From: Oceanispirochaeta sp.
GTDB lineage: Bacteria > Spirochaetota > Spirochaetia > DSM-2461
Length of the DNA stretch: 64,000 nt
Reading direction: 5' to 3'
NCBI GenBank assembly: GCA_963666275.2
Contig: CAXXOA010000001.1
Span: 640,001 to 704,000, forward strand
Below are positions 164 to 24,343 of this stretch, one piece after another; the first letter of the stretch is position 1, and the number at the start of each line of letters is the position of its first letter. Made by a program: the position numbers and the translations under genes. Below the pieces are notes generated by a model, which saw only the letters and a program-made list of their open reading frames with translations, was not told the origin of the DNA and searched no databases.

Positions 164-203
164 GAAATCTCTCAATCTCAATTGAATGTGGCAATATTGC
201 CAG
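164..203 (+). repeat. Degenerate copy R0 of dispersed direct repeat
   Basis: GAAATC..CTCAAT..AATTGAATGTGG|CAATATTGCCAG matches R1/R3/R4 with internal deletions. Confidence 0.5.
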
Positions 204-237
204 ATTTAACCGCCTGTTCACCAGGTGAACCGATAAA

Positions 238-270
238 TATAATACTACTATATGAACCGATGGTTCATAT
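238..270 (+). promoter_or_regulatory. -10 box followed by a palindromic operator
   Basis: TATAAT at 238-243; ATATGAACC-GAT-GGTTCATAT at 250-270. Confidence 0.5.
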
Positions 271-356
271 TGCATAAGCTTCATGCATTGAGTTGAACTT
301 GTACTATCAGCGGTACTAATCATGAAATCTTGCATATATCACTATTACAATTAAAT

Positions 357-1244
357 TTATACCGTAGCTGTAACATCAAGTTTATCTCTTGCAGGAGTTA
401 TTCCAAAGAGCCGTTTATATTCCCGGCTGAATTGAGAAGAGCTTTCATACCCAACTCTGGAGGCTGCTGAATAAGCCTTTTCTCCTTCAATTTGAATGAG
501 CTCTTTTGCTCTATGCAGTCTGATATTCTTTATATACTGCAAAGGTGATGTACTGGTAACTGCCCGAAAATTATTATTAAAAGCAGATACGCTCATTCCT
601 GCTTCTTTTGCCAGTGTTTGCATCTCAAGTGGATCAGAAAAGTTCTCATTGATGATATTAATGACCCTTGAAATCTGGTATAGATTTCTATTGTTGTATG
701 CCAATTCCTTTAGAAATTCACCATGTTCACCCCGAAGAACCTTAAATATGATTTCTTTAACATAGAGAGGACCGAGTATCTCTGTATCATCCTTTGTTTT
801 TATGGCTTTCAGGAGACGAACGGCTGCATCAATTATCTCCTCAGACATTTCGGCCCGAAACAGGCTATTGCTGATTTGATCCCTGTTGAGAGGAGCCGTA
901 TTCATATCTGTAATGATTTCACCAATAATCTTTGGATCAATTTCTATAACAATTCCTAAAAGTGGTTCACCTGGTTTAATGATGGCTTCACATATTACAG
1001 GCAGAGGTACTGTTACAACAAAATAATTATTTTTGTCGTAAGTATAGATCTTATCTCCAAGATAAACATTCTTTGTCCCCTGAGCCATGAGAATGATTTC
1101 CGGTTTATATACAAGGGGAACTGCTTCATAAGGAGTTTCCCTTCTTATCAGATTAACACCGTTTACACTGGTTTGCATTTTCATGTCTGATGGCAGAAGT
1201 TCCATCAATAAATCCTTCATTGTTTCTATTGTGTAATTCATCAT
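357..1244 (-). CDS. AraC family regulator with AraC_N domain (YqhC-like)
   Basis: QGTKNVYLG and VTVPLPV N-domain; C-terminal HTH SPLQYIKNIRL...VGYESSSQFSREYKRLFG; RBS AGAAAGGA before ATG 1244. Confidence 0.9.
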   Translation of the reverse strand: MMNYTIETMKDLLMELLPSDMKMQTSVNGVNLIRRETPYEAVPLVYKPEIILMAQGTKNVYLGDKIYTYDKNNYFVVTVPLPVICEAIIKPGEPLLGIVIEIDPKIIGEIITDMNTAPLNRDQISNSLFRAEMSEEIIDAAVRLLKAIKTKDDTEILGPLYVKEIIFKVLRGEHGEFLKELAYNNRNLYQISRVINIINENFSDPLEMQTLAKEAGMSVSAFNNNFRAVTSTSPLQYIKNIRLHRAKELIQIEGEKAYSAASRVGYESSSQFSREYKRLFGITPARDKLDVTATV

Positions 1245-1432
1245 AATGTCCTTTCTAATAAAGATTATCTCATATGAGCAATAAATGTAATGAAAATCAC
1301 TCAATAACAAGATTGAATTAGCGGAATAGGCAATTCTAATATCCGAATTGGCATTTTATTGAATCCTCTTTGGCAATACATTTAAGCCAGAAGTTGAATC
1401 CATTCTGTGGTTTCAATGGAGAGGAGAGTTTA

Positions 1433-2827
1433 GTGGCTGAGAGTCTAAGTATAGAACCACAAATCACGAATAGTAAAATAGATATAGAACAGAAGGAGTT
1501 TTTGTTTACCAACAAGAATCTCATTTTTCTGTTTATACCAATTCTCATAGAGTTATTTTTGGAATACGCCGTAGGTTTTGCTGATTCAATTATGGTTTCC
1601 CATGTAGGTGAAGCCGCTGTATCTGGAGTATCCCTGGTAAATTTTATTATGCAGCTTCTTATAAGTCTGTTTGCAGCAATTTGTACCGGTGGTGCAGTGA
1701 TTGCCGGACAATATCTGGGAAAGAAGGATAAAAAGAATTCTATCCAGGCCGCAGATCAGTTGGTCTGGTTTGTCGGAATACTCTCTGCTGTTATTATGAT
1801 TATTACTTTAATGTTGAAATCTTTCATCATAGGAACCTTATTCGGACATATTTCAGAAGAAGTACGGGCAAATTCGGAAATCTATTACAATATAGTCATT
1901 CCATCGATTCCATTTCTTGCCTTGATCAATGCAGGAGCTGCCGTATATCGAACATCCGGTAATTCCAAACTTCCCATGAAAATAATGCTGGGGGTCAATT
2001 CCATCAATGTATTGGGAAATGCCTTCTTAATCTATGGTATGAAAATGGGAACAGCAGGGATTGCCATACCAACACTTATATCACGAATAGCTGGTGCAGT
2101 AATCCTCATTTCCCTTCTTTTGAATAACAGGCTTCCCTTGCATATCAAAAGTGAAATCAGGCATCACTTCGACTTTCCAATGATTGCGAGAATCTTGCGG
2201 GTAGGTGTCCCTTTCGGACTGGAAAACAGCTTGTTTTTTCTGGGAAGACTCCTGGTTCTAAGCTTGGTAGCGACATTAGGAACTCCATCGATTGCTGCAA
2301 ATTCCATTGCACTTACTCTGGCTCTCTTTTCTGTTCTTCCTGGAATGGCAATAAATATTGGAATGACTCCAGTGATCTCCCAGTGTATTGGAGCAGGCGA
2401 TTTTGAGCAGGCACGATTTTACCATAAGAGGATACTGCTTTTTATCTATGTTTCCTTAATTGCAATAAATGCCGTAATCCTGACTTTATTACCGGGGATT
2501 CTCAATGTCTATCATCTGTCTGAAACAACCTACCATCTTACCTATCAACTGGTTTTCTGGCATGGAGTCGTCGCAGTATTAATCTGGCCCATGGCTTACT
2601 CTCAACCCGTGACATTCCGTTCGGCCGGTGATGCCAGATTCCCTATGCTGACAGCGACTATTTCGATGTTCATTTGCCGGATACTCATGTCTTACATCTT
2701 TGTGCAATTTTTTAGAATTGGTTTGTTTGGAACCTATTTAGCAATGTTTATGGATTGGGTCGTTAAAGCCATCATATTTACCGTCCGCTATATTTCCGGG
2801 CGATGGATGCGATTCAAATTGATTTGA
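1433..2827 (+). CDS. MATE family efflux transporter
   Basis: About 12 TM segments; GEAAVSGVSLV, GQYLG, RSAGDARFPM; GTG start at 1433 with GAGGAG RBS (ORF open from 1370). Confidence 0.88.
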   Translation: MAESLSIEPQITNSKIDIEQKEFLFTNKNLIFLFIPILIELFLEYAVGFADSIMVSHVGEAAVSGVSLVNFIMQLLISLFAAICTGGAVIAGQYLGKKDKKNSIQAADQLVWFVGILSAVIMIITLMLKSFIIGTLFGHISEEVRANSEIYYNIVIPSIPFLALINAGAAVYRTSGNSKLPMKIMLGVNSINVLGNAFLIYGMKMGTAGIAIPTLISRIAGAVILISLLLNNRLPLHIKSEIRHHFDFPMIARILRVGVPFGLENSLFFLGRLLVLSLVATLGTPSIAANSIALTLALFSVLPGMAINIGMTPVISQCIGAGDFEQARFYHKRILLFIYVSLIAINAVILTLLPGILNVYHLSETTYHLTYQLVFWHGVVAVLIWPMAYSQPVTFRSAGDARFPMLTATISMFICRILMSYIFVQFFRIGLFGTYLAMFMDWVVKAIIFTVRYISGRWMRFKLI

Positions 2828-2852
2828 AAACTATTAGTTAGAAGGAGTTTAT

Positions 2853-3707
2853 ATGGAATATGTTGAATTAAATAATGGAATCAAAATGCCTATGCTCGGT
2901 TACGGGGTTTATCAGGTGAACCCCGATGAGTGTGAAAGATGTGTTCTGGATGCCATCTCTACTGGATATCGTCTTATTGATACCGCCCAGGCTTACTTCA
3001 ACGAAGAAGGGGTTGGTAGGGCTATTGAAAAATGCGAGGTGCCCCGGAATGAACTTTTCATCACAACAAAAGTCTGGCTTGAAAATTATGGATTTGAGAA
3101 AACAAAAGAATCTGTCTACAGGTCCATGGAGAAACTCAAGCTTGATTATCTGGACCTGGTTCTACTCCATCAGCCTTTCAGTGATTATTACGGATCTTAT
3201 CGTGCACTGGAAGAACTATATCGGGAAGGGGTTCTGAAATCCATCGGGGTTAGTAATTTCTATCCCGATAGATTATCTGATATCTGTGCTTTTACAGACA
3301 TCATCCCACAGGTCAATCAGGTAGAGACAAATCCTTTGAATCAGCAGATTGAAGCCCAGATCAACATGGATAAAAATAATGTACGAATAGAATCCTGGGC
3401 TCCTTTCGGAGAGGGTAGAAGTGGTATGTTCTCCAATTCTGTATTGACGGGAATCGGCAACAAATATGGAAAATCTTCGGCTCAGGTAATCCTCCGATGG
3501 CTTGTACAGCGTGGAGTTATTGCTTTGGCAAAGTCTGTTCGCATAGCGCGGCTGAAAGAGAATTTTGAAATATTCGACTTTGAATTATCAGTGGAGGATA
3601 TGGAAATGATCAAAGCTTTGGATACCCAGACCAGTCTGTTTTTCTCCCATCAGGATCCTGCCACAGTGGATTTTTTTGTTGAACTGATAAAGAAACGGAG
3701 ACAGTAA
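2853..3707 (+). CDS. Aldo/keto reductase (2,5-DKG reductase-like)
   Basis: LNNGIKMPMLGYG, DTAQAY, FITTKVW, DLVLLHQP, IGVSNF. Confidence 0.92.
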   Translation: MEYVELNNGIKMPMLGYGVYQVNPDECERCVLDAISTGYRLIDTAQAYFNEEGVGRAIEKCEVPRNELFITTKVWLENYGFEKTKESVYRSMEKLKLDYLDLVLLHQPFSDYYGSYRALEELYREGVLKSIGVSNFYPDRLSDICAFTDIIPQVNQVETNPLNQQIEAQINMDKNNVRIESWAPFGEGRSGMFSNSVLTGIGNKYGKSSAQVILRWLVQRGVIALAKSVRIARLKENFEIFDFELSVEDMEMIKALDTQTSLFFSHQDPATVDFFVELIKKRRQ

Positions 3708-3717
3708 CGGTAAGAAT

Positions 3718-4386
3718 ATGAAAAAGATCTTATTTACATTTATAGCACTGACCCTATTTCTTTCGTTTGCCGGATGTGAAGAACGTTCCACTAATGAAGT
3801 CCGGAATGAGGCTGAAAGTAATGAAACGGAGAGTTCTATAAACAGTAACATACTCGTTGTCTACTTCTCTATGCCGGAGAGTAGCGGTATTGATGCATTG
3901 GCAGGTGCGAGCAGGGTTGTTGAGAACGGGATTGTTCTTGGAAATACCCAATGGGTTGCAGATCGAATTGTTGAATTAACAGGAGCAACTCAATTTGCTA
4001 TTAAAACAGTACAGGATTATCCCGGAAGTCATAAAGCTCTTGTCGAGCAAGGTACAACAGAGAAGAGAACTAATGCACGTCCTGATCTTAGAACGCATAT
4101 CAGCAATCTTGATGACTATGATGTGATCTTTATAGGTTATCCAATCTGGTGGGCTGAACTTCCTATGCCTCTTTACAGTTTCTTGGAAGAGTATGATTTT
4201 TCTGGAAAGAGAATTATTCCCTTCAGTACTCACGGAGGAAGCCAACTAGCTGGAACAATTGATACCCTTAAAGAAAAACTTCCCAACTCAGAGGTGGTTG
4301 AGAATGCATTCACTGTATCCCGCGATCATGTTCGGGAAAGCAAAGCAAGCATTGCAGATTGGTTGGATGAACTGGGGGTGATATGA
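3718..4386 (+). CDS. Flavodoxin-like lipoprotein
   Basis: Lipobox LSFAGC; ILVVYFS, GNT, IFIGYPIWW, PFSTHGGS. Confidence 0.85.
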   Translation: MKKILFTFIALTLFLSFAGCEERSTNEVRNEAESNETESSINSNILVVYFSMPESSGIDALAGASRVVENGIVLGNTQWVADRIVELTGATQFAIKTVQDYPGSHKALVEQGTTEKRTNARPDLRTHISNLDDYDVIFIGYPIWWAELPMPLYSFLEEYDFSGKRIIPFSTHGGSQLAGTIDTLKEKLPNSEVVENAFTVSRDHVRESKASIADWLDELGVI

Positions 4387-4904
4387 AAAAGAGAATCTTA
4401 ATTGCCTATTATTCACGAAAGGGTCAAAACTATTCTGATGGAAGTATTGTCGACTTGAAGGTTGGTAATACTGAGAAGATGGCAGGTTATATTAAAGACA
4501 TCACCGGTGGAGACCTCTTTGAAATTACAACGGTTAAGTCCTATCCCCTTGATTACACAGAAACGACGAGGGTCGCGCAGAGAGAACTTGATGATAATAC
4601 AAGACCTGAATTAAAAGAGTACCTAACGGATCTGGATGAGTACGATACTCTTATCCTGGGATATCCCAATTGGTGGGGGACAATGCCGATGGCTGTATTC
4701 TCATGTTTTGAATTGGTTGATCTATCTGGAAAAACAATTCTCCCTTTCTGTACTCATGAAGGCAGTGGCTTGGGACATAGTATACAGGATCTGAAATCTT
4801 TTGCGGGTAATGCTGAAATAAAAGAAGGACTGGCAGTACAAGGTTCCCAGGTGGATCAAGCTCAACAAACTGTTAGTCGCTGGTTAAAAAATTTGGAGTA
4901 CTGA
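4383..4904 (+). CDS. Flavodoxin (Flavodoxin_4-like)
   Basis: ILIAYYSRKGQNY, GNT, LGYPNWWGTMP, PFCTHEGSG. Confidence 0.9.
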   Translation: MKKRILIAYYSRKGQNYSDGSIVDLKVGNTEKMAGYIKDITGGDLFEITTVKSYPLDYTETTRVAQRELDDNTRPELKEYLTDLDEYDTLILGYPNWWGTMPMAVFSCFELVDLSGKTILPFCTHEGSGLGHSIQDLKSFAGNAEIKEGLAVQGSQVDQAQQTVSRWLKNLEY

Positions 4905-4937
4905 TTGCTGTCAGCTATAACTTGAAGGATTGGAAAA

Positions 4938-6044
4938 ATGAATAGTATTAAGAAGAACTTTGGATTCGGTTGTATGCGGTTGCCTATGAAAAATGGAGAC
5001 GTCGATTATGATCAGTTCTCTGAGATGATCGATACATTCCTGGGAAATGGTTTTAACTATTTCGATACGGCTCATGTCTATCTTGGCGGGAAAAGCGAAC
5101 CTGCACTGAGGGAGTGCCTGGTAAAGCGATACCCCAGAGACAGCTATATACTGACGACAAAGTTAACACAGCACTGCTTTAATAAAGAGGAAGAGATCCG
5201 TCCTCTGTTTGACCGTCAGTTGAAAGCATGCGGTGTAGATTATTTTGACTACTATCTTATGCATGCTCAGAGTGAAGAAATCTATGCAAAGTTCACGTGT
5301 TGTCGCGGATATGAAATATCAAGGGAGCTGAAGGCTGAAGGAAAGTTCAAGCATTTCGGTATTTCATTCCATGATAAAGCATCGGTACTGGATAAAATCC
5401 TAACAGAAAATCCTTATATCGAAGTGGTTCAGATTCAGCTTAATTATATGGATTTTGAAGACCCTGCCGTACAGAGCAGAGAGTGCTATGAAGTTTGCAG
5501 AAAGCATGGGAAGCCTGTCATTGTCATGGAACCCCTTAAAGGGGGGAATCTAGTCAATCTTCCGGAGCAGGCTGCTCGTTTATTCGATGAACTTCAGGGA
5601 GGCAGCTACGCAAGCTATGCTCTCCGTTTCGCGGCCGGGTTTGAAGGTGTATTAATGGTGCTTTCCGGTATGAGCAATATGGAAGATATGAAAGACAACA
5701 TCAGTGCCATGAAAGAGTTTGAGCCTTTGACAGAGAGGGAGAAACAGACAATAGATAAGGTTTGTGAGGTTTTCAGTTCCATGAGTTTAATCCCCTGTAC
5801 TGCCTGCCGCTATTGTACGGATGGATGTCCAAAGAACATTGATATTCCGAATCTATTTGCATGTATGAATGCCAAGGAACTCTACAACAACTGGAATACC
5901 GATTACTATTACAGTAATGTTTATACAGTCAGAAATGGTAAAGCATCGGACTGTATAAAGTGTGGGAAATGTGAGTTCGTTTGTCCCCAGCATCTGAAAA
6001 TTACTGAATTACTTGCAAATGTTGCCGCAGAATTTGAAAAATAG
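4938..6044 (+). CDS. Aldo/keto reductase with C-terminal 4Fe-4S domain
   Basis: FGFGCMRLP, FDTAHVY; CTACRYCTDGCP and CIKCGKCEFVCP. Confidence 0.9.
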   Translation: MNSIKKNFGFGCMRLPMKNGDVDYDQFSEMIDTFLGNGFNYFDTAHVYLGGKSEPALRECLVKRYPRDSYILTTKLTQHCFNKEEEIRPLFDRQLKACGVDYFDYYLMHAQSEEIYAKFTCCRGYEISRELKAEGKFKHFGISFHDKASVLDKILTENPYIEVVQIQLNYMDFEDPAVQSRECYEVCRKHGKPVIVMEPLKGGNLVNLPEQAARLFDELQGGSYASYALRFAAGFEGVLMVLSGMSNMEDMKDNISAMKEFEPLTEREKQTIDKVCEVFSSMSLIPCTACRYCTDGCPKNIDIPNLFACMNAKELYNNWNTDYYYSNVYTVRNGKASDCIKCGKCEFVCPQHLKITELLANVAAEFEK

Positions 6045-6126
6045 AATGAGATTTGTAATCCCCGGTTTATAAAGTACATTTCCATCATTTGTACTTTGTT
6101 TTCCAGGGGATTACAGCTAATCATGT

Positions 6127-6279
6127 AATATCGAATTCCTGCTCCATTCCAACCAATCCCATCATCGGAATTGAATGTGGAGAGATTGCTACATTCCCGG
6201 CTCGGATATCTTCAAATCCACGTTATAATGATGGTTGCTGAGAGGTTCAGAGTTTAAACCCTACATAAACAAAAGTGCC
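6127..6279 (+). repeat. Long copy R1 of dispersed direct repeat
   Basis: 6141-6279 aligns ungapped to 24205-24343 (115/139 identical by hand count). Confidence 0.9.
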
Positions 6280-6318
6280 ATACCCTGAGCGTCAGTTGGA
6301 GGTAAGGTTTAAATCGGT

Positions 6319-6380
6319 AATATAGAAATCATTCTTAATTTGAATCAATCCTGTCATCGGAACTGAATACGATGGAGAGG
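6319..6380 (+). repeat. Degenerate copy R2 of dispersed repeat
   Basis: AATATAGAAATC...CAATCCTGTCATCGGAACTGAAT..TGGAGAG. Confidence 0.7.
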
Positions 6381-6698
6381 TTATAGGATTCAATATCCTG
6401 CACATCCTTGACTCAGTATTTTCCTTTTTCACCAAACTAGGGAATTTCAACAAATATAATCAAATGTACTACTGGAGCTGTTAATCCTTGTTTCTTTCTC
6501 GAATCGAAAAGGTTTTTTAATGACAAAAAATCTTATAGTTTTAATCTAAATCAACAGGAATAGGTCTGTTCTGTACTACCGTCTTCATGACTATTGTGGA
6601 TGTAAGGCGCTGAACCGATGGAATCTTTGATAAAGATTGATCATATAATGAACCGCACCGGGTTTTCCGGAGACACAATTATGTGAGAGGATTGTGTT

Positions 6699-7927
<1,229 letters not shown>

Positions 7928-9380: not shown

Positions 9381-9393
9381 AGGAGGTAAATAT

Positions 9394-13834: not shown

Positions 13835-13846
13835 GCAGGCTAGCAT

Positions 13847-15569: not shown

Positions 15570-15570
15570 T

Positions 15571-15589: not shown

Positions 15590-15653
15590 CTGACGCTTTT
15601 AAATTACCAGTAGAAAGAAAATCTATTTTAGAAAGGAAATTTGGTAGTTTAAA

Positions 15654-16841
15654 ATGAAGAATTTAGTTTTTATAGCATTAGTTTTGATCCCTGTTTTTTA
15701 CGGTGGTGAATCCCTGCATGCTCTGGTCCTGAAGGATATTGAGATCGGGGGAGACATTAAAAAAACAAAAGATGAGACTGTTCTGAATATCATACAGTAT
15801 GAAATCGGCAATGAAATCGGGTCTTCGGATCTGCCTCTGATTGAACAGCGTCTGATTAAATCGGGAATCTTTATTAATGAAGAAACCCGTATCGATTTAA
15901 TTGAAGAGGAAGACCAGGCTGTTCTGGTGCTGACATTGGCCGATAAATTCAGTTTCGTACCCATCCCTATTGTCAAAGGGGGGGAAGAAACAAAAGCCGG
16001 GCTGTTCCTGATGGATAATAACCTCTTCGGTACGGCTGACACACTCTTTCTGGGCGGTATTTTCGGAAAAGATGATATCCTTTTTATGTCCAATTATACA
16101 AACACCCTTGTCAATGGAAGCAACATGGACCTGGGGGCCGGTTTCTTCTATATAAAAGAAGAGAGTGAAATTTCCGATGCCAGCGGGGATCGTCTTGCCG
16201 AGAGGGATCAGGAGTCCATAAGCGCTCAGGTTTTCAGTACCTGGCATCTGGGACAGTGGAATCTGACTCCGACGTTTTCTTTGGGATCCGTTGAATATGA
16301 CAGTTATGACCACCTGACTACTTATAGCTCTAAATTTGCCTTCAATTACAATAATTTATTCTGGGGATCCTTCTTTCCTGAAGGTTTGAACTGGGACGGT
16401 GAATATTCAGCCACTCTGTATTCAGACGAATTCGGTCTGAAACAGGAATCGAAAGCAAAACTGAGCTGGGATAAGAATCTCACTGATCGGTTGCACATGA
16501 CCCTTGGCGGTAGAGGAATGTGGTTTGATGGGGATGAGATTCTCAGTTCTCAAGTGGTGTCGTCAATTCTCCCCGCAAGTGTCTACGCAGATGTGAATAT
16601 GGAAGCCAGCGCCACTCTTAATATAGCACTTATGGATTTTTCCTGGGGATTTATCTCTCTTCCTCTGGCATTCCATGTCGGATACTTTGATGGTATAAGC
16701 GGAAGTAATGAGCTCTATTACGGCCCTTCGGCAGAGCTGAATCTGAATCTGAAAAAGATTGCCATGCCGGCGATCTCTTTAAAATACGGTTGGAATATGG
16801 AAACGACCACTCCTGTTATTCAGGCAAATGTGGGGTTTTAA
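15654..16841 (+). CDS. Outer membrane protein with POTRA-like domain and beta-barrel (Omp85/TamA-like)
   Basis: Signal peptide; IEIGG..KTKDETVL...EQRLIKSGIF; DNNLFG; ends in Phe. Confidence 0.65.
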   Translation: MKNLVFIALVLIPVFYGGESLHALVLKDIEIGGDIKKTKDETVLNIIQYEIGNEIGSSDLPLIEQRLIKSGIFINEETRIDLIEEEDQAVLVLTLADKFSFVPIPIVKGGEETKAGLFLMDNNLFGTADTLFLGGIFGKDDILFMSNYTNTLVNGSNMDLGAGFFYIKEESEISDASGDRLAERDQESISAQVFSTWHLGQWNLTPTFSLGSVEYDSYDHLTTYSSKFAFNYNNLFWGSFFPEGLNWDGEYSATLYSDEFGLKQESKAKLSWDKNLTDRLHMTLGGRGMWFDGDEILSSQVVSSILPASVYADVNMEASATLNIALMDFSWGFISLPLAFHVGYFDGISGSNELYYGPSAELNLNLKKIAMPAISLKYGWNMETTTPVIQANVGF

Positions 16842-16872
16842 TCACCGGAATTAATGCGCGAAGGAGATTAAT

Positions 16873-17733
16873 ATGAAAGTACAGGATAAAATCGTTGTCG
16901 TTACTGGAGCAGGAGGTGGTCTGGGTCAGCAGCTGGTGCTTCAGCTCGTCAGAGAAGGGAATCATGTGGCAGCTGTTGATATCAACAGGGATGCTCTGGA
17001 CGCAACAAAACTCAAAGCTGCTGAGTTTTCCCGGACGCTCAGTATTCACAGGGCAGACATCACAGATAAAGAACAAATTTTATCCCTTGCCAAAGAGATC
17101 GGAGAACGATTCGGAAAGATCGATATTCTGATCAATAATGCAGGAATTATACAGCCCTTCAAAACGTTCTATGATCTGGAGGACGATGCTATACAGAGGA
17201 TTTTCAATATCAATGTGTACGGGATGATCAATATGACAAAAGCATTCCTTCCCTTACTCGCAGCTGCTGATGAATCCAGTCTCTGCAATATATCCAGCAT
17301 GGGAGGTTTTCTTCCCGTGCCCGGTCAGTCCATATACGGTGCATCGAAGGCCTCTGTGAAAATTATCACGGAAGCTCTCGTCCAGGAGTTATCCAGGACA
17401 AATATTCACGTCTCAGTTGTTTTCCCAGGGGGAATCGATACGGATATAAAAAAGAATTCCGGGCTGAAAGAGGAGAGTTCAGGAAAAGAGAAAGCCTCTG
17501 CCGGTTTAAAATTAACCACTCCCGAAAAGGCTGCTGAGATCATCCTGCAGGGAATCAGACTGAATAAACAGAAAATACTGATCGGGAAAGATGCATTAAT
17601 CATGGATATCATCTATAGATTGTTTCCGTTTTCCGCTGCCAGACTTATCAGCAGAAAGATGTCAAAAAATCATGGCAGAATATTTAATGAGCCTGAGAGT
17701 TTGAAAAATAGTGTAATGAGTGAACACAGGTAG
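16873..17733 (+). CDS. Short-chain dehydrogenase/reductase
   Basis: TGAGGGLG, NNAG, SSMGG, YGASK. Confidence 0.92.
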   Translation: MKVQDKIVVVTGAGGGLGQQLVLQLVREGNHVAAVDINRDALDATKLKAAEFSRTLSIHRADITDKEQILSLAKEIGERFGKIDILINNAGIIQPFKTFYDLEDDAIQRIFNINVYGMINMTKAFLPLLAAADESSLCNISSMGGFLPVPGQSIYGASKASVKIITEALVQELSRTNIHVSVVFPGGIDTDIKKNSGLKEESSGKEKASAGLKLTTPEKAAEIILQGIRLNKQKILIGKDALIMDIIYRLFPFSAARLISRKMSKNHGRIFNEPESLKNSVMSEHR

Positions 17734-17785
17734 GGAGACTCCTATTTTAAAAAAGAATATAATTGTATAGAGGAGTTCTTTCATC

Positions 17786-20050
17786 ATGCATAGTCCGAAA
17801 TTATTTAAACAGTTCACAGGATTCGTGGCCGGTTTATTTTTACTCTCTGGATTTTTTACTTTCCCGGTTGCCGCAGAGGACGCTTCAATTGAAAAGAAAA
17901 CACCGAAAATAGCTCTTGTTCTGCAGGGGGGAGGGGCTTTGGGAATAGCTCACATAGCTGTGATTGAAGAACTGGATCGTCTGGGGATCCCTGTGGATCT
18001 GGTTGTAGGAACCAGTATGGGGGCTATTGTCGGTGGACTCTACAGCAGCGGATATAGCGCTGACGATTTGGAGTTGCTTGTAAATACAACTGACTGGATG
18101 GAGCTTTTCATCCCTCAGACCCCCTATTACAATAAGCCAATACGGGACCGTTATGATGAATCCCGGTACCTTTCTTATGATTTTTCCCGGGAAAAAGTCC
18201 CTGTAGCGAGAGGGTTCCTTTCCGACAGGAATATACTCTCCTATTTTGATCAGCTCACCCTGGATTACGGAAATAATATCCCCTTCAGTTCTCTGCCGAG
18301 GGAGTTTCGAGCAGTTGCGACGGATATTACCAACGGTGAGAGGGTAGTTATCAGTGAGGGATCCCTTTCGGAGGCTATGAGGGCCAGTATGGGAATCCCC
18401 GGTTTGTTCGCTCCCTATTATATTCAGGATCGTTTGCTTGTGGACGGCGGACTGGTGGATAATCTCCCCATTGATGTGGCCAGAGAAGCCGGGGCCGATT
18501 ACATAATTGCCATTCAGCTGACCGGTGGCATGCCCTTTTCCCCTGAAGAGCTGAAATCCTCTCCTCTGGGCTCCTTGTCGAAAACAATTGATATTATGAT
18601 TTATCAGAATGTTAAATCCAATTATTCGATGGCTGATTTTATCCTGAATATTGATCTTACCGGATATCAGGCTGTTGATTTCATGAAGAGCGAAGAAATT
18701 CTTGCCATCGGGAAAAGAACGGTAGAAGCGAACACCGAAAACTTAGCAGAACTGAAAGATCAGCTTCTCAGGATGGGAGCACATAGCAAGGTTAGCGATA
18801 TTACGCCGCAGAAAATTGATCATGTCCAGATCAACGGGGCATCAAGGCAGGACCTGCGGAAAATAAGGGAAGAGTTCTCCTCTTTCGAGGGAGCATTTGC
18901 CGACCGGGAAACAGTGAAATCCGTAATGGACGATTTATCCCGGAATGATATCTACAAAGAGATCAGGCTGGGACGCGTTGTCAATGAGTCGGGACGATCG
19001 GATCTGGTTCTGGATCTGGAAAGGAACAGGGAGATCAACAGTGTTAATATCGGGTTTTCTTCCGCTTCAACCTATTCCGATCGCATCAACAGTCTGGATG
19101 TTATATCCGGTGCTTTGATCTTAAGGGGGGTTTTTATTCCCGAATCCAAGTGGACCCTGGGATTTCAGATAAACGATACACCCGGATTGAGCCTCTCCTA
19201 CCTACAGCCTTTCGGCCCCATTTATACAAATCTGTCCTATCAGATATCTACAGATAGAGTCCTTACTTCTTCCGAGGATACGGGAGGAGGACCCTTTCAG
19301 GTAAGAAGCAGTAAATTTCAGATGGAAACAGGTATTAATCCTATGAACATTATCGATTTTTCCATCGGTTTGGACTATGACTATTCCGTTCTGGGAGATA
19401 AATATGCCCAGATAAACGACCTGGATCAGGATGAACATCTGCAGATCCTGTTCAGTGAATTTGAATTTCTCACACTGGACCATTTTCTTTTCCCTGAAAA
19501 AGGAATCCATGTTAATAATAGTTTTTTCTATAATCTCCACGGATTCAGCGGGGATGAATCCTTTCAGGTCCTGGAGACCTTCGGGACAGTCGCTATGCCT
19601 GTCACTTCGCTCATTTCCCTGGAAGCCGAGTGGATAGGTGGAACGGATTTTTCCGGAGGGGGAATGAGTAGTCAAAGTGCCCCGATATTGTATAAACCTA
19701 ATCTTGGTAATAGACGAATCTTTCCCGGTACACTGAATGAAAAAGAAGAGTTCGGGAGTTTTGTTTCCGGGGGCAGCTTGCTTTTCAAGTACAGGGTCGA
19801 TTCTCAGCATAGTAGTTCGTTGTTTCCGATGTACCTTATCTTTCAGGGGGCTGCCGGTTATGTCTCTCCCGATGCCGGTCAAATACGAAAAATCGAAGAT
19901 TCTCTCTCCTGGCACTTCAATACAGGAGTCGGATTTCGATTCTCCGATTCTTTCGGGTTGATGGTGAGAACCGGGACTTATCATGGCTTTGATAGCGGAA
20001 ATGCCGGGTTTATTGCGATTGATATCGGGTCTTTCGGGGTTCGTGACTGA
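17786..20050 (+). CDS. Patatin-like phospholipase with POTRA and beta-barrel (PlpD-like)
   Basis: Signal peptide; GGGALG, GTSMG, DGG; beta-rich C-terminus. Confidence 0.85.
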   Translation: MHSPKLFKQFTGFVAGLFLLSGFFTFPVAAEDASIEKKTPKIALVLQGGGALGIAHIAVIEELDRLGIPVDLVVGTSMGAIVGGLYSSGYSADDLELLVNTTDWMELFIPQTPYYNKPIRDRYDESRYLSYDFSREKVPVARGFLSDRNILSYFDQLTLDYGNNIPFSSLPREFRAVATDITNGERVVISEGSLSEAMRASMGIPGLFAPYYIQDRLLVDGGLVDNLPIDVAREAGADYIIAIQLTGGMPFSPEELKSSPLGSLSKTIDIMIYQNVKSNYSMADFILNIDLTGYQAVDFMKSEEILAIGKRTVEANTENLAELKDQLLRMGAHSKVSDITPQKIDHVQINGASRQDLRKIREEFSSFEGAFADRETVKSVMDDLSRNDIYKEIRLGRVVNESGRSDLVLDLERNREINSVNIGFSSASTYSDRINSLDVISGALILRGVFIPESKWTLGFQINDTPGLSLSYLQPFGPIYTNLSYQISTDRVLTSSEDTGGGPFQVRSSKFQMETGINPMNIIDFSIGLDYDYSVLGDKYAQINDLDQDEHLQILFSEFEFLTLDHFLFPEKGIHVNNSFFYNLHGFSGDESFQVLETFGTVAMPVTSLISLEAEWIGGTDFSGGGMSSQSAPILYKPNLGNRRIFPGTLNEKEEFGSFVSGGSLLFKYRVDSQHSSSLFPMYLIFQGAAGYVSPDAGQIRKIEDSLSWHFNTGVGFRFSDSFGLMVRTGTYHGFDSGNAGFIAIDIGSFGVRD

Positions 20051-20146
20051 TCATGTTGTATTCCATTTTTTCTGACTTGTCCTCCTATTTCTGGTACCTG
20101 TCATTTTCCTAGGCCCTACGAAAATCTGTAGTTACCGTGCATAAAA

Positions 20147-20333
20147 CTCAATTGGTTTACATCCCTGTCTCAAGCAAGACAGATAATTGAATGCTGGAGG
20201 CAGGAATATAATACAATCCGCCCCCATAGTTCATTAAATGATTTGTCGCCAGAGAATTCCGGCGTAAGTTTGAAGAGTCAGAAAACAAGGAAGAACCCCT
20301 AAATGCTACTGGATGAATATGGGGGTAAGGTCA
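20147..20333 (+). mobile_element. Remnant of an IS3 family (IS407-like) element: OrfB C-terminus plus IRR
   Basis: Translates LNWFTSLSQARQIIECWRQEYNTIRPHSSLNDLSP; ends GGGGGTAAGGTCA. Confidence 0.75.
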
Positions 20334-20391
20334 CTGACTAAGAGAGCATTTTGAAGTAATCTATCTGCAGAATCAGGGGATTGCCAATATC

Positions 20392-20937
20392 ATGATAGAA
20401 GAGATTATTAAGAAAAGAAAAAGCATCAGACAATTTAATGACGAAGAACTGGATATTTCACAGATTTTAGATACTATAAATATAGCCAAATTTGCTCCTT
20501 CAGGTAAGAATCGCCAACCATGGAAAGTCAAATTGCTTGAAGGAAATGATAAAGAAACTCTTTTGGAGATCTTGAAAGCAAATCCCGATGAGAAGACAGC
20601 AGCAGGATCTTTTTCTATCTCAATCAATGCGATTGAGCAGAGCAGTATCACTTTATTGATCTTTAATCCTTTTTCTTACAAAGAGGAAAATTATTCCCAG
20701 AATAGATTACTCATGGATACTCAATCTATAGGAGCATTTATCCAAAATATACTATTACTCTGTACTGAGAGAGATATTTCAACATTATGGATAAACGATG
20801 TTTATTATGAAAAATCCGCTATTGAGAGTTTTTATGTTAAAGGTGAAATGGAATTAATTGCAGCAATTGCAATGGGGTATAGTAATCAAGAAAGAAGGTT
20901 CAATATCCGCCATGAAATTGGTGACATCATTCTTTAG
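20392..20937 (+). CDS. Nitroreductase family protein
   Basis: KRKSIRQF, APSGKNRQPW, QSIGAFIQNILL. Confidence 0.9.
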   Translation: MIEEIIKKRKSIRQFNDEELDISQILDTINIAKFAPSGKNRQPWKVKLLEGNDKETLLEILKANPDEKTAAGSFSISINAIEQSSITLLIFNPFSYKEENYSQNRLLMDTQSIGAFIQNILLLCTERDISTLWINDVYYEKSAIESFYVKGEMELIAAIAMGYSNQERRFNIRHEIGDIIL

Positions 20938-20959
20938 TATGATAATTTCATAGATTCTG

Positions 20960-21033
20960 AATACAGAAATCCTGCTCAATTCCAACCAATCCCATCATCG
21001 TAATGGAATATGGAAAGATTACTATATTACTGG
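20960..21033 (+). repeat. Copy R3 of dispersed repeat
   Basis: CCTGCTCAATTCCAACCAATCCCATCATCG...GAATATGGAAAGATTACTATATTACTGG. Confidence 0.88.
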
Positions 21034-22379
21034 CGAAGCGAGGTATATTGAAGCAATGGGTTTCCAGAATCGGGAGGGGAGGACCTTTGTTTATTCGAAA
21101 CTCCTAAAAGAACTGTTGATATGATAAGCGTTAGAACTTCTGCGATTCCGACAGTATTCCATATAATTTTATTGCCAAAGATGAATGGTAATAAAGTAAT
21201 CGAGAGAGGAGTCAAAATCAAGCATCTACTGCTGGCAATAATGACTGCAAATCTGGTCTGTTTCGTTGAGTAAAAGTACGTTGTTATCAACAGATTTACA
21301 GCCATGACAATAAACGCCCAGCTAAAGGCTGGAAGAGCGTTGATTGTAGTCTTAATTAATATAGGATTTGAATTAAACAACATGGTAATTCTGTCCCTGA
21401 AGATTGTATATAACAAATAAACAGTGATGGCGCTTAAAGTATTGATGATAATTCCTGAATAAAAATAGTACATCAGATCCTTTTTGCTCTTGCGTCCAAA
21501 ACTTTGGCCTAACAAAGGCTGCATCCCTTCTGATACACCTATGAAAATCCCCAATGAAAAGGATGTTAAGTATGAGATAATCGAGAATGCTGATACTGAG
21601 ATATCTCCTATTCTCTTGATTAGGATGTAATTCATGCAAAGTGTCATGGTGGGCATCCCCAATTGGGATATCATTTCAGGAAAACCGCGCAAGACAATCT
21701 TTCTTATCAGTACAGTAGATATTGAAAAAGGACTGATCTGTAGTCTTCCTCTCCGGAGTATGAAATGACTTATTAAAATCAGGAAACTTATAACCTGTCC
21801 TAACCCGGATGCAATGGCAGCTCCCTTTATTCCCATTCTTAGAGGGAAAACAAAAAGCCAATCCAGAAATATATTCATTACAGCACCCGAAATGACAGCA
21901 ACACTCACAAGAATAGGGGCATTATCATTTCTTATGAAACCCTGTAATATAATGCTGCATAAAAGAGGGAGTGAGAAGGCGCTGAAATAGAATAGATATT
22001 CGTCCGTCATTTTCGCGAATGTCTCATTTGCACCGGTTAATACAGCAATTTTCTCGGAGAAAAGCATCCCTAGAACCATCAATGAAATTCCAGCTAAAAA
22101 AGCCATGGTACTTGAATGCATAAACGCGTCGTTAGCGCCGTCTATATCTTCTCGGCCAAAACGAATTGCTGTAATAGTCGTCCCTCCTATGGTCAGTAAG
22201 ATAGCAAGTGCATTTGCCATAAGAGTGAACGGCATCGCTAAATTGACAGCACCCAGAGCGTCCACCCCAATCCCCCGACCAACAAAGATTCCATCCACTA
22301 TTACATATAAAAATGTAGTTGCTGATCCTGCGACTGTTGGGAGAATATATTTATATAGATTTTTGGTTTGTTCTTTCAT
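21027..22379 (-). CDS. MATE family efflux transporter (MepA-like)
   Basis: YVIVDGIFVGRGIG, NIFLDWLFVF, EGMQPLLG; stop codon lies inside R3. Confidence 0.9.
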   Translation of the reverse strand: MKEQTKNLYKYILPTVAGSATTFLYVIVDGIFVGRGIGVDALGAVNLAMPFTLMANALAILLTIGGTTITAIRFGREDIDGANDAFMHSSTMAFLAGISLMVLGMLFSEKIAVLTGANETFAKMTDEYLFYFSAFSLPLLCSIILQGFIRNDNAPILVSVAVISGAVMNIFLDWLFVFPLRMGIKGAAIASGLGQVISFLILISHFILRRGRLQISPFSISTVLIRKIVLRGFPEMISQLGMPTMTLCMNYILIKRIGDISVSAFSIISYLTSFSLGIFIGVSEGMQPLLGQSFGRKSKKDLMYYFYSGIIINTLSAITVYLLYTIFRDRITMLFNSNPILIKTTINALPAFSWAFIVMAVNLLITTYFYSTKQTRFAVIIASSRCLILTPLSITLLPFIFGNKIIWNTVGIAEVLTLIISTVLLGVSNKQRSSPPDSGNPLLQYTSLRQ

Positions 22380-22395
22380 GCAATTCCTTCGTTTG

Positions 22396-22842
22396 TTAAA
22401 GAAGATGTTCAGTTTCTTTGCGGAATAGATCTAAATATTTTTGAGAGCTTAGTATTAGACTTTTTCTCTCATCCTCGGTCATTCTTTTCCATGTGCGTTC
22501 TTCAAATTGAAATACAATTGCTATGAACTCATTAGCATAATTCTGACCAGATTCGGTTAATTCAATGATTTTACTTCTTTTATCACGTTCAGATTTTTTC
22601 AGAGTAATGAATCCAGCTTTCTCGATTTCTTTGAGAGCACTATTTACGGTTTGCTTACTCATAGACCATTGATCACATATATCCTTCTGAGTAATGTGGT
22701 CGTTCATTTCATATATTGCGTAGAAAACCCAATAGCCGCTTTCTGAAAGATTACTTCTTTGGGCAAGCTTTTTGTAAACGGCATCAGTTTGTTTCCAGAT
22801 AGAAAAGTATTCCTGCAACTGACAATGCAATTCCTGAGTCAT
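22396..22842 (-). CDS. MarR family regulator
   Basis: ITQKDIC...SKQTVNSALK...DKRSKIIELTESG. Confidence 0.9.
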   Translation of the reverse strand: MTQELHCQLQEYFSIWKQTDAVYKKLAQRSNLSESGYWVFYAIYEMNDHITQKDICDQWSMSKQTVNSALKEIEKAGFITLKKSERDKRSKIIELTESGQNYANEFIAIVFQFEERTWKRMTEDERKSLILSSQKYLDLFRKETEHLL

Positions 22843-22858
22843 TTTTTACCTCACAAAA

Positions 22859-22905
22859 AGTCCGAAATCGGACTATATTAGAAAAGAAACTCAATTTCCT
22901 GTCAA
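22859..22905 (-). promoter_or_regulatory. marR promoter and operator
   Basis: TTGACA (-35) at 22900-22905 on the minus strand; palindrome AGTCCGA-AA-TCGGACT at 22859-22874. Confidence 0.7.
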
Positions 22906-23018
22906 GCGCGATGGAATGACTTTGCAATAAAAAAATATTTTTTTGTATTAGAACGATAACGATGATGAAGCACGTAAAATCTTTTTTCTCTACTGGGGAT
23001 TCCACGTATCTATGAGTT

Positions 23019-23106
23019 AATGGAGAAATCTAGCTCACTTCCAACCTGTCCCATCATCGGAACTGAATCTGGAGAGATTGCTATATTACCGGTATATGGG
23101 ATATCT
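23019..23106 (+). repeat. Copy R4 of dispersed repeat
   Basis: GCTCACTTCCAACCTGTCCCATCATCGGAACTGAATCTGGAGAGATTGCTATATTACCGG. Confidence 0.88.
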
Positions 23107-23353
23107 GTTGCAAAGACCACTCTCTCGGCTTCTCTGTAGGATGGTTATGAGAGACCAAAGTGATGGATATCACGGTTAGTTTAGGACAGTGATGCCAGCA
23201 TTGATGCTTTTTTGAAATTCTTCCGGTCCTGGAATGGTGAAGGATTTCGCTATTCTTATATGCTAATTGGATAATCCGCTTTATTTATTCTATCTGAAAT
23301 GATATCAATTGAAGAGTAGTATAAAATTCTACGATTATGGTAATGGGGACCCT

Positions 23354-24154
23354 ATGGAACTGATAAAAAAAAGAATAGTGATAAAAGTTGGAACCTCTAC
23401 ACTTACTAATGAAAGTGGTGAAAAGAAATTACGATCCTTTGATCAATTGGCACGAGTCATCTCTGATTTGAATAATGCAGGTTATGAAACAATTCTTGTT
23501 TCATCTGGTGCTATAGCTGTAGGGGTCAATAAACTTCAGATGAAAGAACGTCCTCGGGAAATGCGGTTGAAACAGGCTTCTGCAGCGGTTGGGCAAAGTC
23601 GTATAATGAACCTTTACAGTAAGTTCTTTAACGATTATGACAAGATTGTCGCACAAATACTCCTTAATGCAGATGATATAAAACATGAAGAAAAGAAAGA
23701 GAACCTTATCAATACATTCGATTCTTTGCTTGAATTGGGTGTAATTCCCATCGTCAATGAAAACGACTCTGTAAGTTACACAGAAATTGAATCAGAAGAC
23801 AAAATTTTTGGTGATAACGATATGCTTTCGGCAGTTGTAGCTGTCCTATGTAGGGCAGAGATGCTCGTTATCTTTTCCGATATAGACGGATTTTATGATA
23901 AAGATCCCCGTCTTTATGCTGATGCGAAACTGATAGAGTGCATTTCTTGCATTGATGAAGAAATCATATCATTGGCTGGAGGAGCCGGTTCCCGTAGAGG
24001 AACTGGAGGGATGAAGACAAAAATCCAAGCAGCAACTCTCGCTACTAAACAGGGCATTGATACTATCATCACAAATGGAAAAAATTCTGCATCTCTTTAC
24101 GATATTATTGATGGTAAAAAAGTGGGAACATTGTTCAGCGGACAACAAATGTAA
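23354..24154 (+). CDS. proB: Glutamate 5-kinase (no PUA domain)
   Basis: RIVIKVGTSTLT, VSSGAIAVG, QASAAVGQ, IVNENDSV, GDNDMLSA, GTGGMKTK. Confidence 0.93.
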   Translation: MELIKKRIVIKVGTSTLTNESGEKKLRSFDQLARVISDLNNAGYETILVSSGAIAVGVNKLQMKERPREMRLKQASAAVGQSRIMNLYSKFFNDYDKIVAQILLNADDIKHEEKKENLINTFDSLLELGVIPIVNENDSVSYTEIESEDKIFGDNDMLSAVVAVLCRAEMLVIFSDIDGFYDKDPRLYADAKLIECISCIDEEIISLAGGAGSRRGTGGMKTKIQAATLATKQGIDTIITNGKNSASLYDIIDGKKVGTLFSGQQM

Positions 24155-24190
24155 TTCAAGAATTAAACATCTGCATTCTGTTCGTATTTG

Positions 24191-24343
24191 AATGCGATAT
24201 CGATGTTCAACTGCAACCTGTCCCCTAATCAGAACTGAATGTGGAGAGATTACTACATTACAGGCTCAGTTCTCTTCAAAACCACACTATAATGAAAGCT
24301 GCTAAGAGGTTCAGAGTTTAAACCCTACATAAACAACAGTGCC
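24191..24343 (+). repeat. Long copy R5 of dispersed repeat, abutting the recQ breakpoint
   Basis: About 83% identical to R1; terminal 39 bp 38/39 identical. Confidence 0.9.

What the first reader, a model, noticed from the sequence alone, without database searches (positions are those of the whole stretch)
164..24343. Cargo modules separated by six same-orientation copies of an unannotated repeat: candidate cassette-accretion system
Seen: related sequences (consensus about AATATAGAAATCCTGCTCAATTCCAACCWRTCCCATCATCGGAACTGAATGTGGAGAGATTGCTAYATTACCGG) occur at 164 (R0), 6127 (R1), 6319 (R2), 20960 (R3), 23019 (R4) and 24191 (R5), all on the + strand. They sit at module boundaries: unknown gene |R0| AraC-MATE-AKR-flavodoxins |R1,R2| IS3, RND/TCS/patatin module, nitroreductase |R3| MATE-MarR |R4| proB |R5| broken recQ. 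The R0-R1, R3-R4 and R4-R5 intervals are self-contained detox or stress units in either orientation. I saw no copy in the backbone beyond 24.4 kb. Inference: these are recombination or attachment scars left by serial capture of gene modules, integron-like in logic but without attC consensus. No recombinase is in the window.
Basis: partly seen in the sequence, partly recalled or inferred. Interest (0 to 1): 0.82.

Follow-up and report, generated by a model that had tools for sequence, protein, structure and literature searches.

The report
Repeat-bounded swappable gene modules in spirochaetes
A short palindromic DNA site, found only inside foreign-DNA islands of a few related spirochaetes, marks the points where whole gene modules have been swapped between genomes, so it most likely serves as the docking site of an undescribed cassette-shuffling system whose enzyme is still unknown.

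Summary
The repeat is real. R1, R3, R4 and R5 are strong, R2 weaker, R0 half-degenerate. It is a ~73-bp imperfect palindrome centred on AGTYCC-ATCATC-GGAACT (two inverted arms, 6-bp spacer). All 13 genome copies lie in three low-GC islands, 12 in one orientation. The site was found in 5 of 38 family genomes and in no other of 400 phylum genomes sampled.

Near-identical modules occur in different orders in three genomes, with breaks at the site. The window's own MATE-MarR module occurs in another organism's contig followed by a different 555-bp insert and another site.

It is not attC, dif, an Rfam RNA or a MITE with target duplications. It sits inside islands that enter by other routes (tRNA ends; a recQ-family gene), and some copies bracket a phage-type replication origin.

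Best reading (0.55): crossover site of a trans-acting tyrosine recombinase that shuffles non-autonomous cargo, like dif modules or CIMEs. Main rival (0.28): a passive conserved end sequence shuffled by RecA. No cognate enzyme was found; only an integrase remnant abuts R0. The scan had not noted this repeat before.

The parts
1..132 (-). C-terminal remnant of a spirochaete phage-type tyrosine integrase (open frame continues 48 bases left of the window); cut off at the left edge of R0
   Evidence: PF00589 E=3.9e-6; translation; 60% identity over 53 aa to P0001, whose family has matches in 112 of 401 class genomes
139..211 (+). R0: degenerate site (spacer position 175); right arm of the origin-bearing 'B' type
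   Evidence: nhmmer E=0.0097; BLAST to C2 copies; alignment
212..320 (+). Shortened B segment: one GTTCA-N5-TGAAC repeat, AT-rich tract, then variant core (spacer ATCAGC at 306)
357..6044 (.). Module M1: AraC (-), MATE, aldo-keto reductase, two flavodoxins, AKR-4Fe4S (+)
   Evidence: ORFs, Pfam
6125..6197 (+). R1 (spacer ATCATC at 6161)
6198..6316 (.). Junction of the recQ-targeting island family: arm at 6254-6277 with an inverted partner arm, lying between R1 and R2
   Evidence: same arm directly follows the truncated recQ in G003 and lies in a two-arm junction in G008
6317..6389 (+). R2 (spacer GTCATC at 6353), divergent
   Evidence: E=1.9e-4
6649..7957 (+). IS3-family element (not part of the repeat system)
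   Evidence: terminal inverted repeats, Pfam, ALIL pseudoknot
8340..20937 (+). Module M2: RND efflux trio, two-component pair, unknown 395-aa ORF, SDR, patatin, nitroreductase (ends 21 bases before R3)
20958..21030 (+). R3 (spacer at 20994); the MATE stop codon lies inside its right end
21027..22842 (-). Module M3: MarR-MATE; found in another organism between copies of the site
   Evidence: run X4 contig 12: window 21006-23065 (142 differences), then 555 other letters, then 23014-23088 again
23017..23089 (+). R4 (spacer at 23053)
23190..23254 (+). Piece of the inner arm of the tRNA-Met island elements of contig C2, carrying an inverted copy of the repeat's outer box
   Evidence: 88-92% to C2:640954, 653409, 673701
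23309..24154 (+). Module M4: glutamate 5-kinase (proB)
   Evidence: TIGR01027 310 bits, over cut-off
24189..24261 (+). R5 (spacer CTAATC at 24225)
24262..24341 (.). Second copy of the recQ-island attachment arm (arm motif 24318-24341); right end of the island
   Evidence: 85% to 6150-6279 over 130 nt with R5
24342..27064 (-). Displaced 5' part of the recQ-family gene (about codons 1-138), interrupted by IS66 at 24696-27029 with an 8-bp duplication; the intact copy lies 14 kb left of the window
   Evidence: 86% to C1:626336-626740

Best explanation
R is the junction and crossover site of a site-specific, most likely tyrosine-type, recombinase supplied in trans. Each cargo module carries a right arm at its left end and a left arm at its right end (31-41 bp imperfect inverted ends). 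Neighbours meet at a nearly constant 6-bp spacer (ATCATC), giving the ~73-bp palindrome. Recombination between directly repeated sites releases or inserts whole multi-gene modules with their own promoters, in either gene orientation. Occasional use of look-alike secondary sites captures new DNA. The modules ride inside larger integrative islands (tRNA-Met, tRNA-Pro, tRNA-Leu, recQ) that have mostly lost their integrases, so R works as a cargo-exchange point shared by island families with different targets. SHOWN: site anatomy, island restriction, shuffled module orders with breaks at the site, crossover bracketed between about -5 and +16 of the spacer start by co-segregating variants. INFERRED: site-specific catalysis, tyrosine chemistry, action in trans, present-day activity.
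For: Anatomy: near-invariant inverted arms around a 6-bp spacer (14 of 17 sites match 4-5 of 6 arm positions), one compensatory G-C to A-T change in R1 and R3, no stable single-strand fold in 8 of 10 folds. Location: 13 profile hits at E<0.01 (9 of them built the profile), all in three islands, all in the lowest ~20% GC of 1315 windows; reversed-genome control best E=3.5. Shuffling: G000 has X|B|Z and Y|B|W; G001 has X|Y|V (X 95% over 775 bp, Y 97.7% over 2195 bp); G002 has Y|B|Z (95.6% over 2321 bp; 88.6% over 1084 bp). Of 171 pairs among 19 sites, 4 share only the left flank, 22 only the right, 2 both (one an overlap artefact of R1/R2), 143 neither; left flanks 99% alike lose identity 11-14 bases after the spacer. 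The window's M3 module lies in run X4 followed by a site, 555 other bases and another site. Junctions with only partial likeness on one side (C2:1347385, R0) look like secondary-site use. No PF00239 serine recombinase in G000, G002, G005 or G015 (1 of 5 genomes has one).
Against: No cognate recombinase was found. No site lies near any integrase in 57 tyrosine-recombinase loci of nine relatives (best E=0.22) or 25 loci of the P0001 family (best E=0.73). The remnant beside R0 belongs to the ordinary tRNA-type integrase family. For module Y the two left junctions differ from +12 to +38 although the flank beyond is 98.7% alike, which one clean crossover in the spacer does not explain. Cargo also occurs without the site: Y's left end in G002, a DUF3124 copy in G001:C12, module Z at C2:1331759, proB in G001:C12, and a radical-SAM/two-component block shared by the recQ islands of G003/G008 and the tRNA-Met island of G000. 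None of the window's modules has a close site-bounded copy in 37 other family genomes. Spacer varies in 5 of 17 sites. The X4 evidence is one contig (depth 7.7) laid at 85% stringency.
Confidence: 0.55

Rival explanations
1. R is a passive, conserved internal end sequence (a block of binding sites for an accessory, excision or repressor protein, next to the origin and att arms) of one family of decayed satellite-like integrative elements. Copies pile up as such elements stack in tandem, and RecA-dependent recombination between the 70-300 bp repeats swaps the cargo.
For: Units of the tRNA-Met arrays in G000 and G002 share one plan: att arm, cargo, site-origin-site, cargo, truncated integrase, toxin-antitoxin pair, att. 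The repeat's outer box recurs, inverted, in the tRNA-Met att arms. The B segment carries GTTCA-N5-YGAAC repeats plus an AT-rich tract of the kind found in phage replication-initiator genes (62 of 80 viral loci inside an ORF; 8 of 8 hand-picked ORFs are initiators). The odd Y junction and site-free cargo copies fit sloppier recombination.
Against: Most flanks share no homology beyond the 73 bp (143 of 171 pairs). Genes end within or just outside the site (MATE and the 2'-5' RNA ligase-like gene stop at the same column). A 555-bp insert between two sites and junctions with a degenerate half are hard to get from homology alone. Conservation peaks on the inverted arms.
Confidence: 0.28
2. Modules are non-autonomous transposons (mobile insertion cassettes or MITE-flanked units). 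R is two terminal inverted repeats meeting at a 6-bp target, or a 73-bp MITE, moved by a DDE transposase in trans.
For: The two ends of the unit are inverted copies (GTAATATAGMAATC at both ends; up to 23 of 36 positions symmetric). The islands are full of IS3, IS66, IS21 and IS256 elements.
Against: No target duplication flanks the unit (16 of 17 none, one 4-bp match). No transposase-containing element with these ends was found in G000. No IS6 transposase over cut-off in 5 genomes. The spacer is the same at unrelated loci, which a copied target would not be. 12 of 13 copies share one orientation.
Confidence: 0.1
3. R acts as a single-stranded hairpin (an atypical attC used by the resident integron integrase, or an HUH-enzyme end) or as a small RNA.
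For: The consensus folds into one long interrupted hairpin (-7.6/-7.9 kcal/mol against mononucleotide shuffles of -4.4/-5.0, sd about 2). One copy folds at z about -2.2. A second local palindrome pairs in 72% of cells against 33-45% when slid. G000 has an intact integron integrase.
Against: 0 of 17 sites have the attC box pair. 8 of 10 single folds are no better than shuffles. Covariation in the second hairpin does not exceed shuffles (385 of 500). No Rfam match. The integron has its own GTT-type sites 400 kb away and is also present in G003 and G008, which lack the repeat. Modules are multi-gene and in both orientations.
Confidence: 0.07

Closest known systems
dif modules / pdif sites of Acinetobacter Rep_3/OrfX plasmids (PMC13141974; abstract and Introduction read)
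   Same: Accessory modules of diverse function separated by two-arm sites with a 6-bp spacer; no recombinase inside the modules; shuffling between replicons; an iteron-bearing segment is itself site-bounded.
   Different: R does not resemble dif (no XerD-type arm). R sites are almost all direct, not alternating inverted C/D. R is ~73 bp with outer boxes, not 28 bp. It is chromosomal, inside integrative islands.
CIMEs and tandem site-specific accretion of ICE/IME (PMC5704250; passages read)
   Same: Gene-less att-bounded elements stacked in tandem and mobilised by an integrase in trans. The tRNA-Met and recQ junctions of these islands fit this directly.
   Different: R is not the end of a target gene or tRNA, has no anchoring empty site in the backbone, and occurs inside islands with four different targets.
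Integron cassette arrays and CALINs (PMC4889954; passages read)
   Same: Direct-repeat palindromic sites between tightly trimmed cargo; stop codons overlap the site; integrase may be elsewhere.
   Different: No attC boxes, no reliable single-strand fold, multi-gene modules up to 14.6 kb with own regulators and mixed orientation.
Strand-biased circularizing integrative elements and Tn554 (PMC10214605; passages read)
   Same: Imperfect terminal inverted repeats with a 6-bp spacer carried at the junction; tyrosine recombinases.
   Different: SEs encode intA, CDS2, intB and CDS4; the R modules encode no recombinase and are stacked in arrays.
Tycheposons (10.1101/2020.12.28.424599; abstract read)
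   Same: Cargo-carrying, tRNA-integrating elements that remodel islands in marine bacteria; resembles the C2 arrays that hold R.
   Different: Nothing in what I read describes an internal cargo-exchange site; hallmark genes were not tested.

Membership tests
Integron attC / CALIN | RYYYAAC ... GTTRRRY box pair 40-145 nt apart (consensus recalled; not printed in the passages of PMC4889954) | tested here: not met
   0 of 17 sites on either strand
Integron attC / CALIN | Stable single-strand hairpin | tested here: inconclusive
   8 of 10 folds no better than shuffles, one copy z about -2.2 on both strands; consensus folds modestly; alignment fold weak
Integron attC / CALIN | Mostly single promoterless ORFs in one orientation | tested here: not met
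   Modules of 1-10 genes, both orientations, with AraC/MarR/two-component regulators
Integron attC / CALIN | IntI available in the genome | tested here: met
   TIGR02249 390 bits at C1:1063760, with its own array; also in G003 and G008, which lack R
dif modules (pdif/XerCD) | Site made of XerC and XerD binding arms like chromosomal dif | tested here: not met
   A recalled XerD-arm pattern hits once in G000 (C3:183678), not at any R; R arms are AGTYCC/GGRACT
dif modules (pdif/XerCD) | Two arms around a 6-bp spacer | tested here: met
dif modules (pdif/XerCD) | Alternating inverted sites (C and D modules) | tested here: not met
   12 of 13 G000 hits in one orientation; inverted copies only at C2:671200, G002:960124 and as partial boxes in att arms
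dif modules (pdif/XerCD) | Same modules in different orders across replicons | tested here: met
CIME / tandem accretion | [quoted passage not shown] | tested here: not met
   No Rfam or tRNA match to R; no backbone copy at E<0.01. The separate tRNA-Met and recQ junctions do meet it
CIME / tandem accretion | Bounded by att sites, own integrase lost | tested here: inconclusive
   Modules lack recombinases; that R is an att site is the inference under test
CIME / tandem accretion | Excised or mobilised by a cognate integrase | not testable with these tools
   Only assembled contigs were available for the laid runs
SE / Tn554-like elements | intA-CDS2-intB-CDS4 (or tnpABC) inside the element | tested here: not met
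   No intact recombinase gene between R sites in the window or C2 arrays
SE / Tn554-like elements | Imperfect terminal inverted repeats and a 6-bp junction spacer | tested here: met
MITE / IS end | Target-site duplication flanking the unit | tested here: not met
   16 of 17 none; one 4-bp match
MITE / IS end | Autonomous partner with the same terminal repeats | tested here: not met
   None in G000; no IS6 transposase over cut-off in 5 genomes. Other IS families in relatives were not screened
Serine resolvase res site | Resolvase in the genome | tested here: not met
   PF00239 absent from G000, G002, G005, G015; one copy in G001
CRISPR array | Regular short spacers | tested here: not met
   Intervals 192-14641 bp
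Known ncRNA family | Rfam match | tested here: not met
   window 1-30000 and five loci
Tycheposons | Hallmark gene profiles and vesicle/capsid transfer | not tested
   Abstract only

The most novel reading that the evidence does not exclude
An independent, undescribed cassette system: a dedicated recombinase acts on a double-stranded 73-bp site that is neither attC nor dif. It captures multi-gene modules through secondary sites, trims them to gene boundaries, and shuttles them, and a site-bounded replication origin, between integrative islands with different chromosomal targets and between species.
Probability: 0.3. Interest if true: 0.82.

Novelty: new variant of a known kind. Interest (0 to 1): 0.62.

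Why it matters
Few general cassette systems are known: integrons (attC), dif modules (XerCD) and att-bounded accretion. How islands without their own mobility genes gain and swap cargo is an open question (10.64898/2026.01.13.699239, abstract). Here a defined short site with comparative evidence of module exchange gives a direct test: put two sites on a reporter and look for the enzyme. If a dedicated recombinase is found, it would be another cassette platform, one that handles multi-gene efflux and stress modules, and a new recombinase-site pair. If RecA does the work, it is a clean example of passive module shuffling inside decayed islands. Breadth is narrow so far: 5 of 38 family genomes plus two sequencing runs from other samples.

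Tried and rejected
Wider occurrence: exact 19-mer over the species collection gave 5 stretches; 3 lie inside coding sequences of unrelated taxa with no flanking likeness and were dropped as chance. Metagenome scans 0 and 0; viral scan 0. BLAST of site plus B segment: 10 of 401 class genomes; the 5 hits outside the family cover only short AT-rich parts at E>=7e-5 and were dropped unexamined. 25-mer with 3 mismatches: only G000 of 401 phylum genomes.

Coding remnant: six-frame reading showed no consistent frame across copies. RNA or hairpin.

IS6 end: the tail after R5 begins like a recalled IS26 repeat; rejected when the same arm turned up at the recQ junction of G003 and G008 and no IS6 transposase was found.

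Cognate enzyme: remnant searched in 38 genomes (own only), in the protein database (none), in representatives, then P0001 in 401 genomes, proteins and viral contigs (none). A weak profile hit near an XerC-like gene of a G002 element (E=0.15-1.3, inside an ORF) was judged chance. The full-length relative of the truncated island integrase (G002:4409967) has no R site or iterons in 60 kb around it.

The left flank shared by G005 and G015 looked like a group II intron end from memory; no Rfam support, left unexplained.

Reads: no RNA holder listed; no site-to-site deletion joint among X1 contigs, which drop rare forms, so this says nothing on activity; X6 gave no cover.

Literature: 8 searches listed no description of this repeat; a guessed genus name plus 'genomic island' gave 0 papers and the four recQ terms gave 0. 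Subscription papers and supplements were not seen. Earlier scan notes: none by sequence or words.

Full report
OBSERVATION. The window is G000:C1:640001-704000 of a 5.27-Mb, 3-contig genome; titled hits place its kin in the Spirochaetaceae. The repeat is real. A 75-nt family lies at 6127, 20960, 23019 and 24191, 72-84% alike. The 19-nt core matches five times with at most 3 mismatches against 0.01 expected. R2 is divergent and R0 half-degenerate (profile E=1.9e-4 and 0.0097).

ANATOMY. Aligned copies centre on AGTYCC-ATCATC-GGAACT: two inverted 6-bp arms around a 6-bp spacer. Fourteen of 17 sites match 4-5 of 6 arm positions and 12 of 17 have the same spacer. R1 and R3 carry a compensatory change in both arms. 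Conservation runs from about -36 to +36. The outer parts are inverted copies of one box, so the whole unit is a ~73-bp imperfect palindrome with five extra bases in the left arm. It does not fold reliably as a single strand (8 of 10 folds no better than shuffles). A second local palindrome shows no covariation above shuffles. There is no Rfam match, no attC box pair (0 of 17) and no target duplication (16 of 17 none).

WHERE IT OCCURS. In G000 a profile gives 13 hits at E<0.01 (9 were in the training set): six in the window, six at C2:643-681 kb and one at C2:1349.5 kb. Twelve share one orientation; the reversed-genome control reaches only E=3.5. All 13 lie in the lowest ~20% GC of 1315 windows. 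The C2:643-681 kb copies sit in an array behind tRNA-Met with repeated tRNA 3' ends, three truncated integrase genes and toxin-antitoxin pairs. The C2:1349 kb copy lies 9 kb from a tRNA-Pro integrase. The core occurs in 5 of 38 family genomes: behind tRNA-Met in G001 and G002, near tRNA-Leu in G015, and beside a recQ 5' fragment in G005. It was not found in 400 other phylum genomes or in two metagenome scans and one viral scan.

MODULES ARE SHUFFLED AT THE SITE. Call X the 2'-5' RNA ligase-like gene, Y the AAA_28/YitT/DUF3124 block, Z a methyltransferase and B a ~250-bp gene-less segment. G000 has X|B|Z and Y|B|W; G001 has X|Y|V; G002 has Y|B|Z, with 89-98% identity over 0.8-2.3 kb and breaks at the site. 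Among 171 pairs of 19 sites, 4 share only the left flank, 22 only the right, 2 both (one an overlap artefact) and 143 neither. Left flanks that are 99% alike lose identity 11-14 bases after the spacer. The base at -6 follows the left module, so the crossover is bracketed between about -5 and +16. For the window itself, no close site-bounded copy of its modules was found in 37 family genomes. But a contig from run X4 (another organism and study) carries window 21006-23065, the MarR-MATE module with breaks inside R3 and R4, then 555 other bases, then another full site. Run X5, a seawater metagenome, also holds pieces of this module. Modules are tightly trimmed: the MATE stop codon and that of X fall at the same column inside the right box.

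THE B SEGMENT. R0 (shortened), C2:643857, 650446, 1349524, two G002 copies and the G015 copy are followed by up to four GTTCA-N5-YGAAC repeats and an AT-rich tract; in the G000 and G002 copies a variant core (spacer ATCAGC or similar) closes the segment, while the G015 contig ends before it. Arrays of this pattern occur at 99 viral stretches; 62 of the 80 fetched lie inside an ORF, and 8 of 8 hand-picked ORFs match phage replication-initiator families. I infer that B is a phage- or satellite-type origin cut out of its gene and bounded by two sites. This was not tested.

THE HOST ISLAND. The window's island sits in a recQ-family gene: an intact copy at C1:625164-626756 and a displaced 5' piece at window 24342-27064, 86% alike and broken by IS66. 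Similar 5' duplications around cargo occur in G003, G008, G018, G043 and G005. In G003, G008 and G018 the displaced piece ends near codon 320. In G003 the arm that follows it, also present in a junction in G008, is the tail seen after R1 and R5. So R1-R2 bracket a recQ-type junction and R5 abuts one. The G003 and G008 islands have no R. Window 23190-23254 is a piece of the tRNA-Met elements' inner arm, which itself carries an inverted outer box. R is therefore a layer inside islands that enter by other sites, and DNA has passed between the tRNA-Met and recQ islands.

THE ENZYME. Not found. A tyrosine-integrase C-terminus abuts R0 on the minus strand, 60% identical to P0001, a member of the common spirochaete phage-type integrase family. 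No R site lies near integrases in 57 plus 25 fetched loci. Serine resolvases are missing from 4 of the 5 site-bearing genomes. An intact integron integrase with its own cassettes and group II introns lies 400 kb away and is also in genomes without R.

MECHANISM AND ODDS. Two inverted arms around a fixed 6-bp spacer is the usual layout of a tyrosine-recombinase core (established knowledge: dif, lambda att). With breaks at the core, half-degenerate junctions and a constant orientation, the best reading is recombinase-driven exchange of non-autonomous modules (0.55). Against it: no enzyme; module Y's two left junctions differ from +12 to +38; and several cargo genes occur without the site. These keep alive the rival that R is a conserved internal end of decayed satellite-like elements and RecA does the swapping (0.28). 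Transposon ends (0.10) and single-strand or RNA roles (0.07) fit less well.

COMPARISON. It works like Acinetobacter dif modules (PMC13141974, abstract and Introduction) and like CIME accretion (PMC5704250, passages), but fails membership of both: no Xer arms, direct rather than alternating sites, no target-gene core. It fails attC/CALIN (PMC4889954, passages; box consensus recalled) and lacks the SE gene set (PMC10214605, passages). The tRNA arrays resemble tycheposon islands (10.1101/2020.12.28.424599, abstract). PMC3607928 on Treponema integrons was seen only as a search listing. Eight searches listed no description of this repeat; the library lacks most subscription papers and I read no supplements. 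An earlier scan note (e1-7899529) reads tRNA-linked repeats in this genome as a structured RNA; it may concern part of what I call the tRNA-Met junctions, not R, and I did not test it.

VERDICT. Observation confirmed; interpretation partly supported, with real comparative evidence for module exchange at the site but no enzyme and no sign of current activity. New variant of a known kind; interest 0.62.

Noticed in passing
G000:C1:625164-667064; L079, L080, L081, L082, L045: A recQ-family gene is a recurring island target: cargo lies between an intact copy and a directly repeated 5' piece in G000, G003, G008, G018 (two pieces) and G043, with a 5' fragment in G005. The piece ends near codon 320 in G003, G008 and G018; G003 and G008 share an arm with the window. 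No integrase was seen among the ORFs listed. Four-term paper search gave 0.
   Followed up: partly
G000:C1:626756-627087 and window 29486-29812: The 3' end of the FAD-oxidoreductase gene is also duplicated (86%) right beside the intact recQ copy, without the chemoreceptor gene in between; suggests the island arrived with chromosomal DNA from a relative.
   Followed up: partly
G000:C2:623366-701700: Tandem array behind tRNA-Met with at least five repeated tRNA 3'-end junctions, three integrase genes truncated at the same place, several IS66, a Shedu-domain gene and toxin-antitoxin pairs.
   Followed up: partly
G000:C1:1050000-1064710: Chromosomal integron with intact IntI, low-GC cassettes and at least three near-identical group II introns inserted between cassettes; IntI orthologues in all 5 genomes tested.
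   Followed up: partly
L079:6280-9577 and L080:11258-14556 against G000:C2:637055-640353: The same radical-SAM plus two-component block is cargo of the recQ island in G003 and G008 and of the tRNA-Met array in G000 (80-82%).
   Followed up: no
G000:C1:2589700-2590110: Five to six head-to-tail copies of a 77-bp non-coding unit.
   Followed up: no
G000:C3:183678: The only dif-like sequence found by a recalled pattern, near the middle of the 382-kb contig.
   Followed up: no
G000:C1:1756975-1793500: Prophage behind tRNA-Leu with two tyrosine recombinases and a structural gene block.
   Followed up: no
window 61469-61580; 37745-37804 and 62701-62760: A 56-bp tandem pair and a 60-bp inverted pair of GC-rich intergenic repeats in the backbone, unrelated to R.
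   Followed up: no
L045 and L048, 30-170 bases upstream of the site: G005 and G015 share a 132-bp non-coding left flank (75%) that has no match in G000 or Rfam.
   Followed up: partly
window 15654-16841: 395-aa ORF in module M2 with no Pfam or NCBIfam match at the thresholds used.
   Followed up: no
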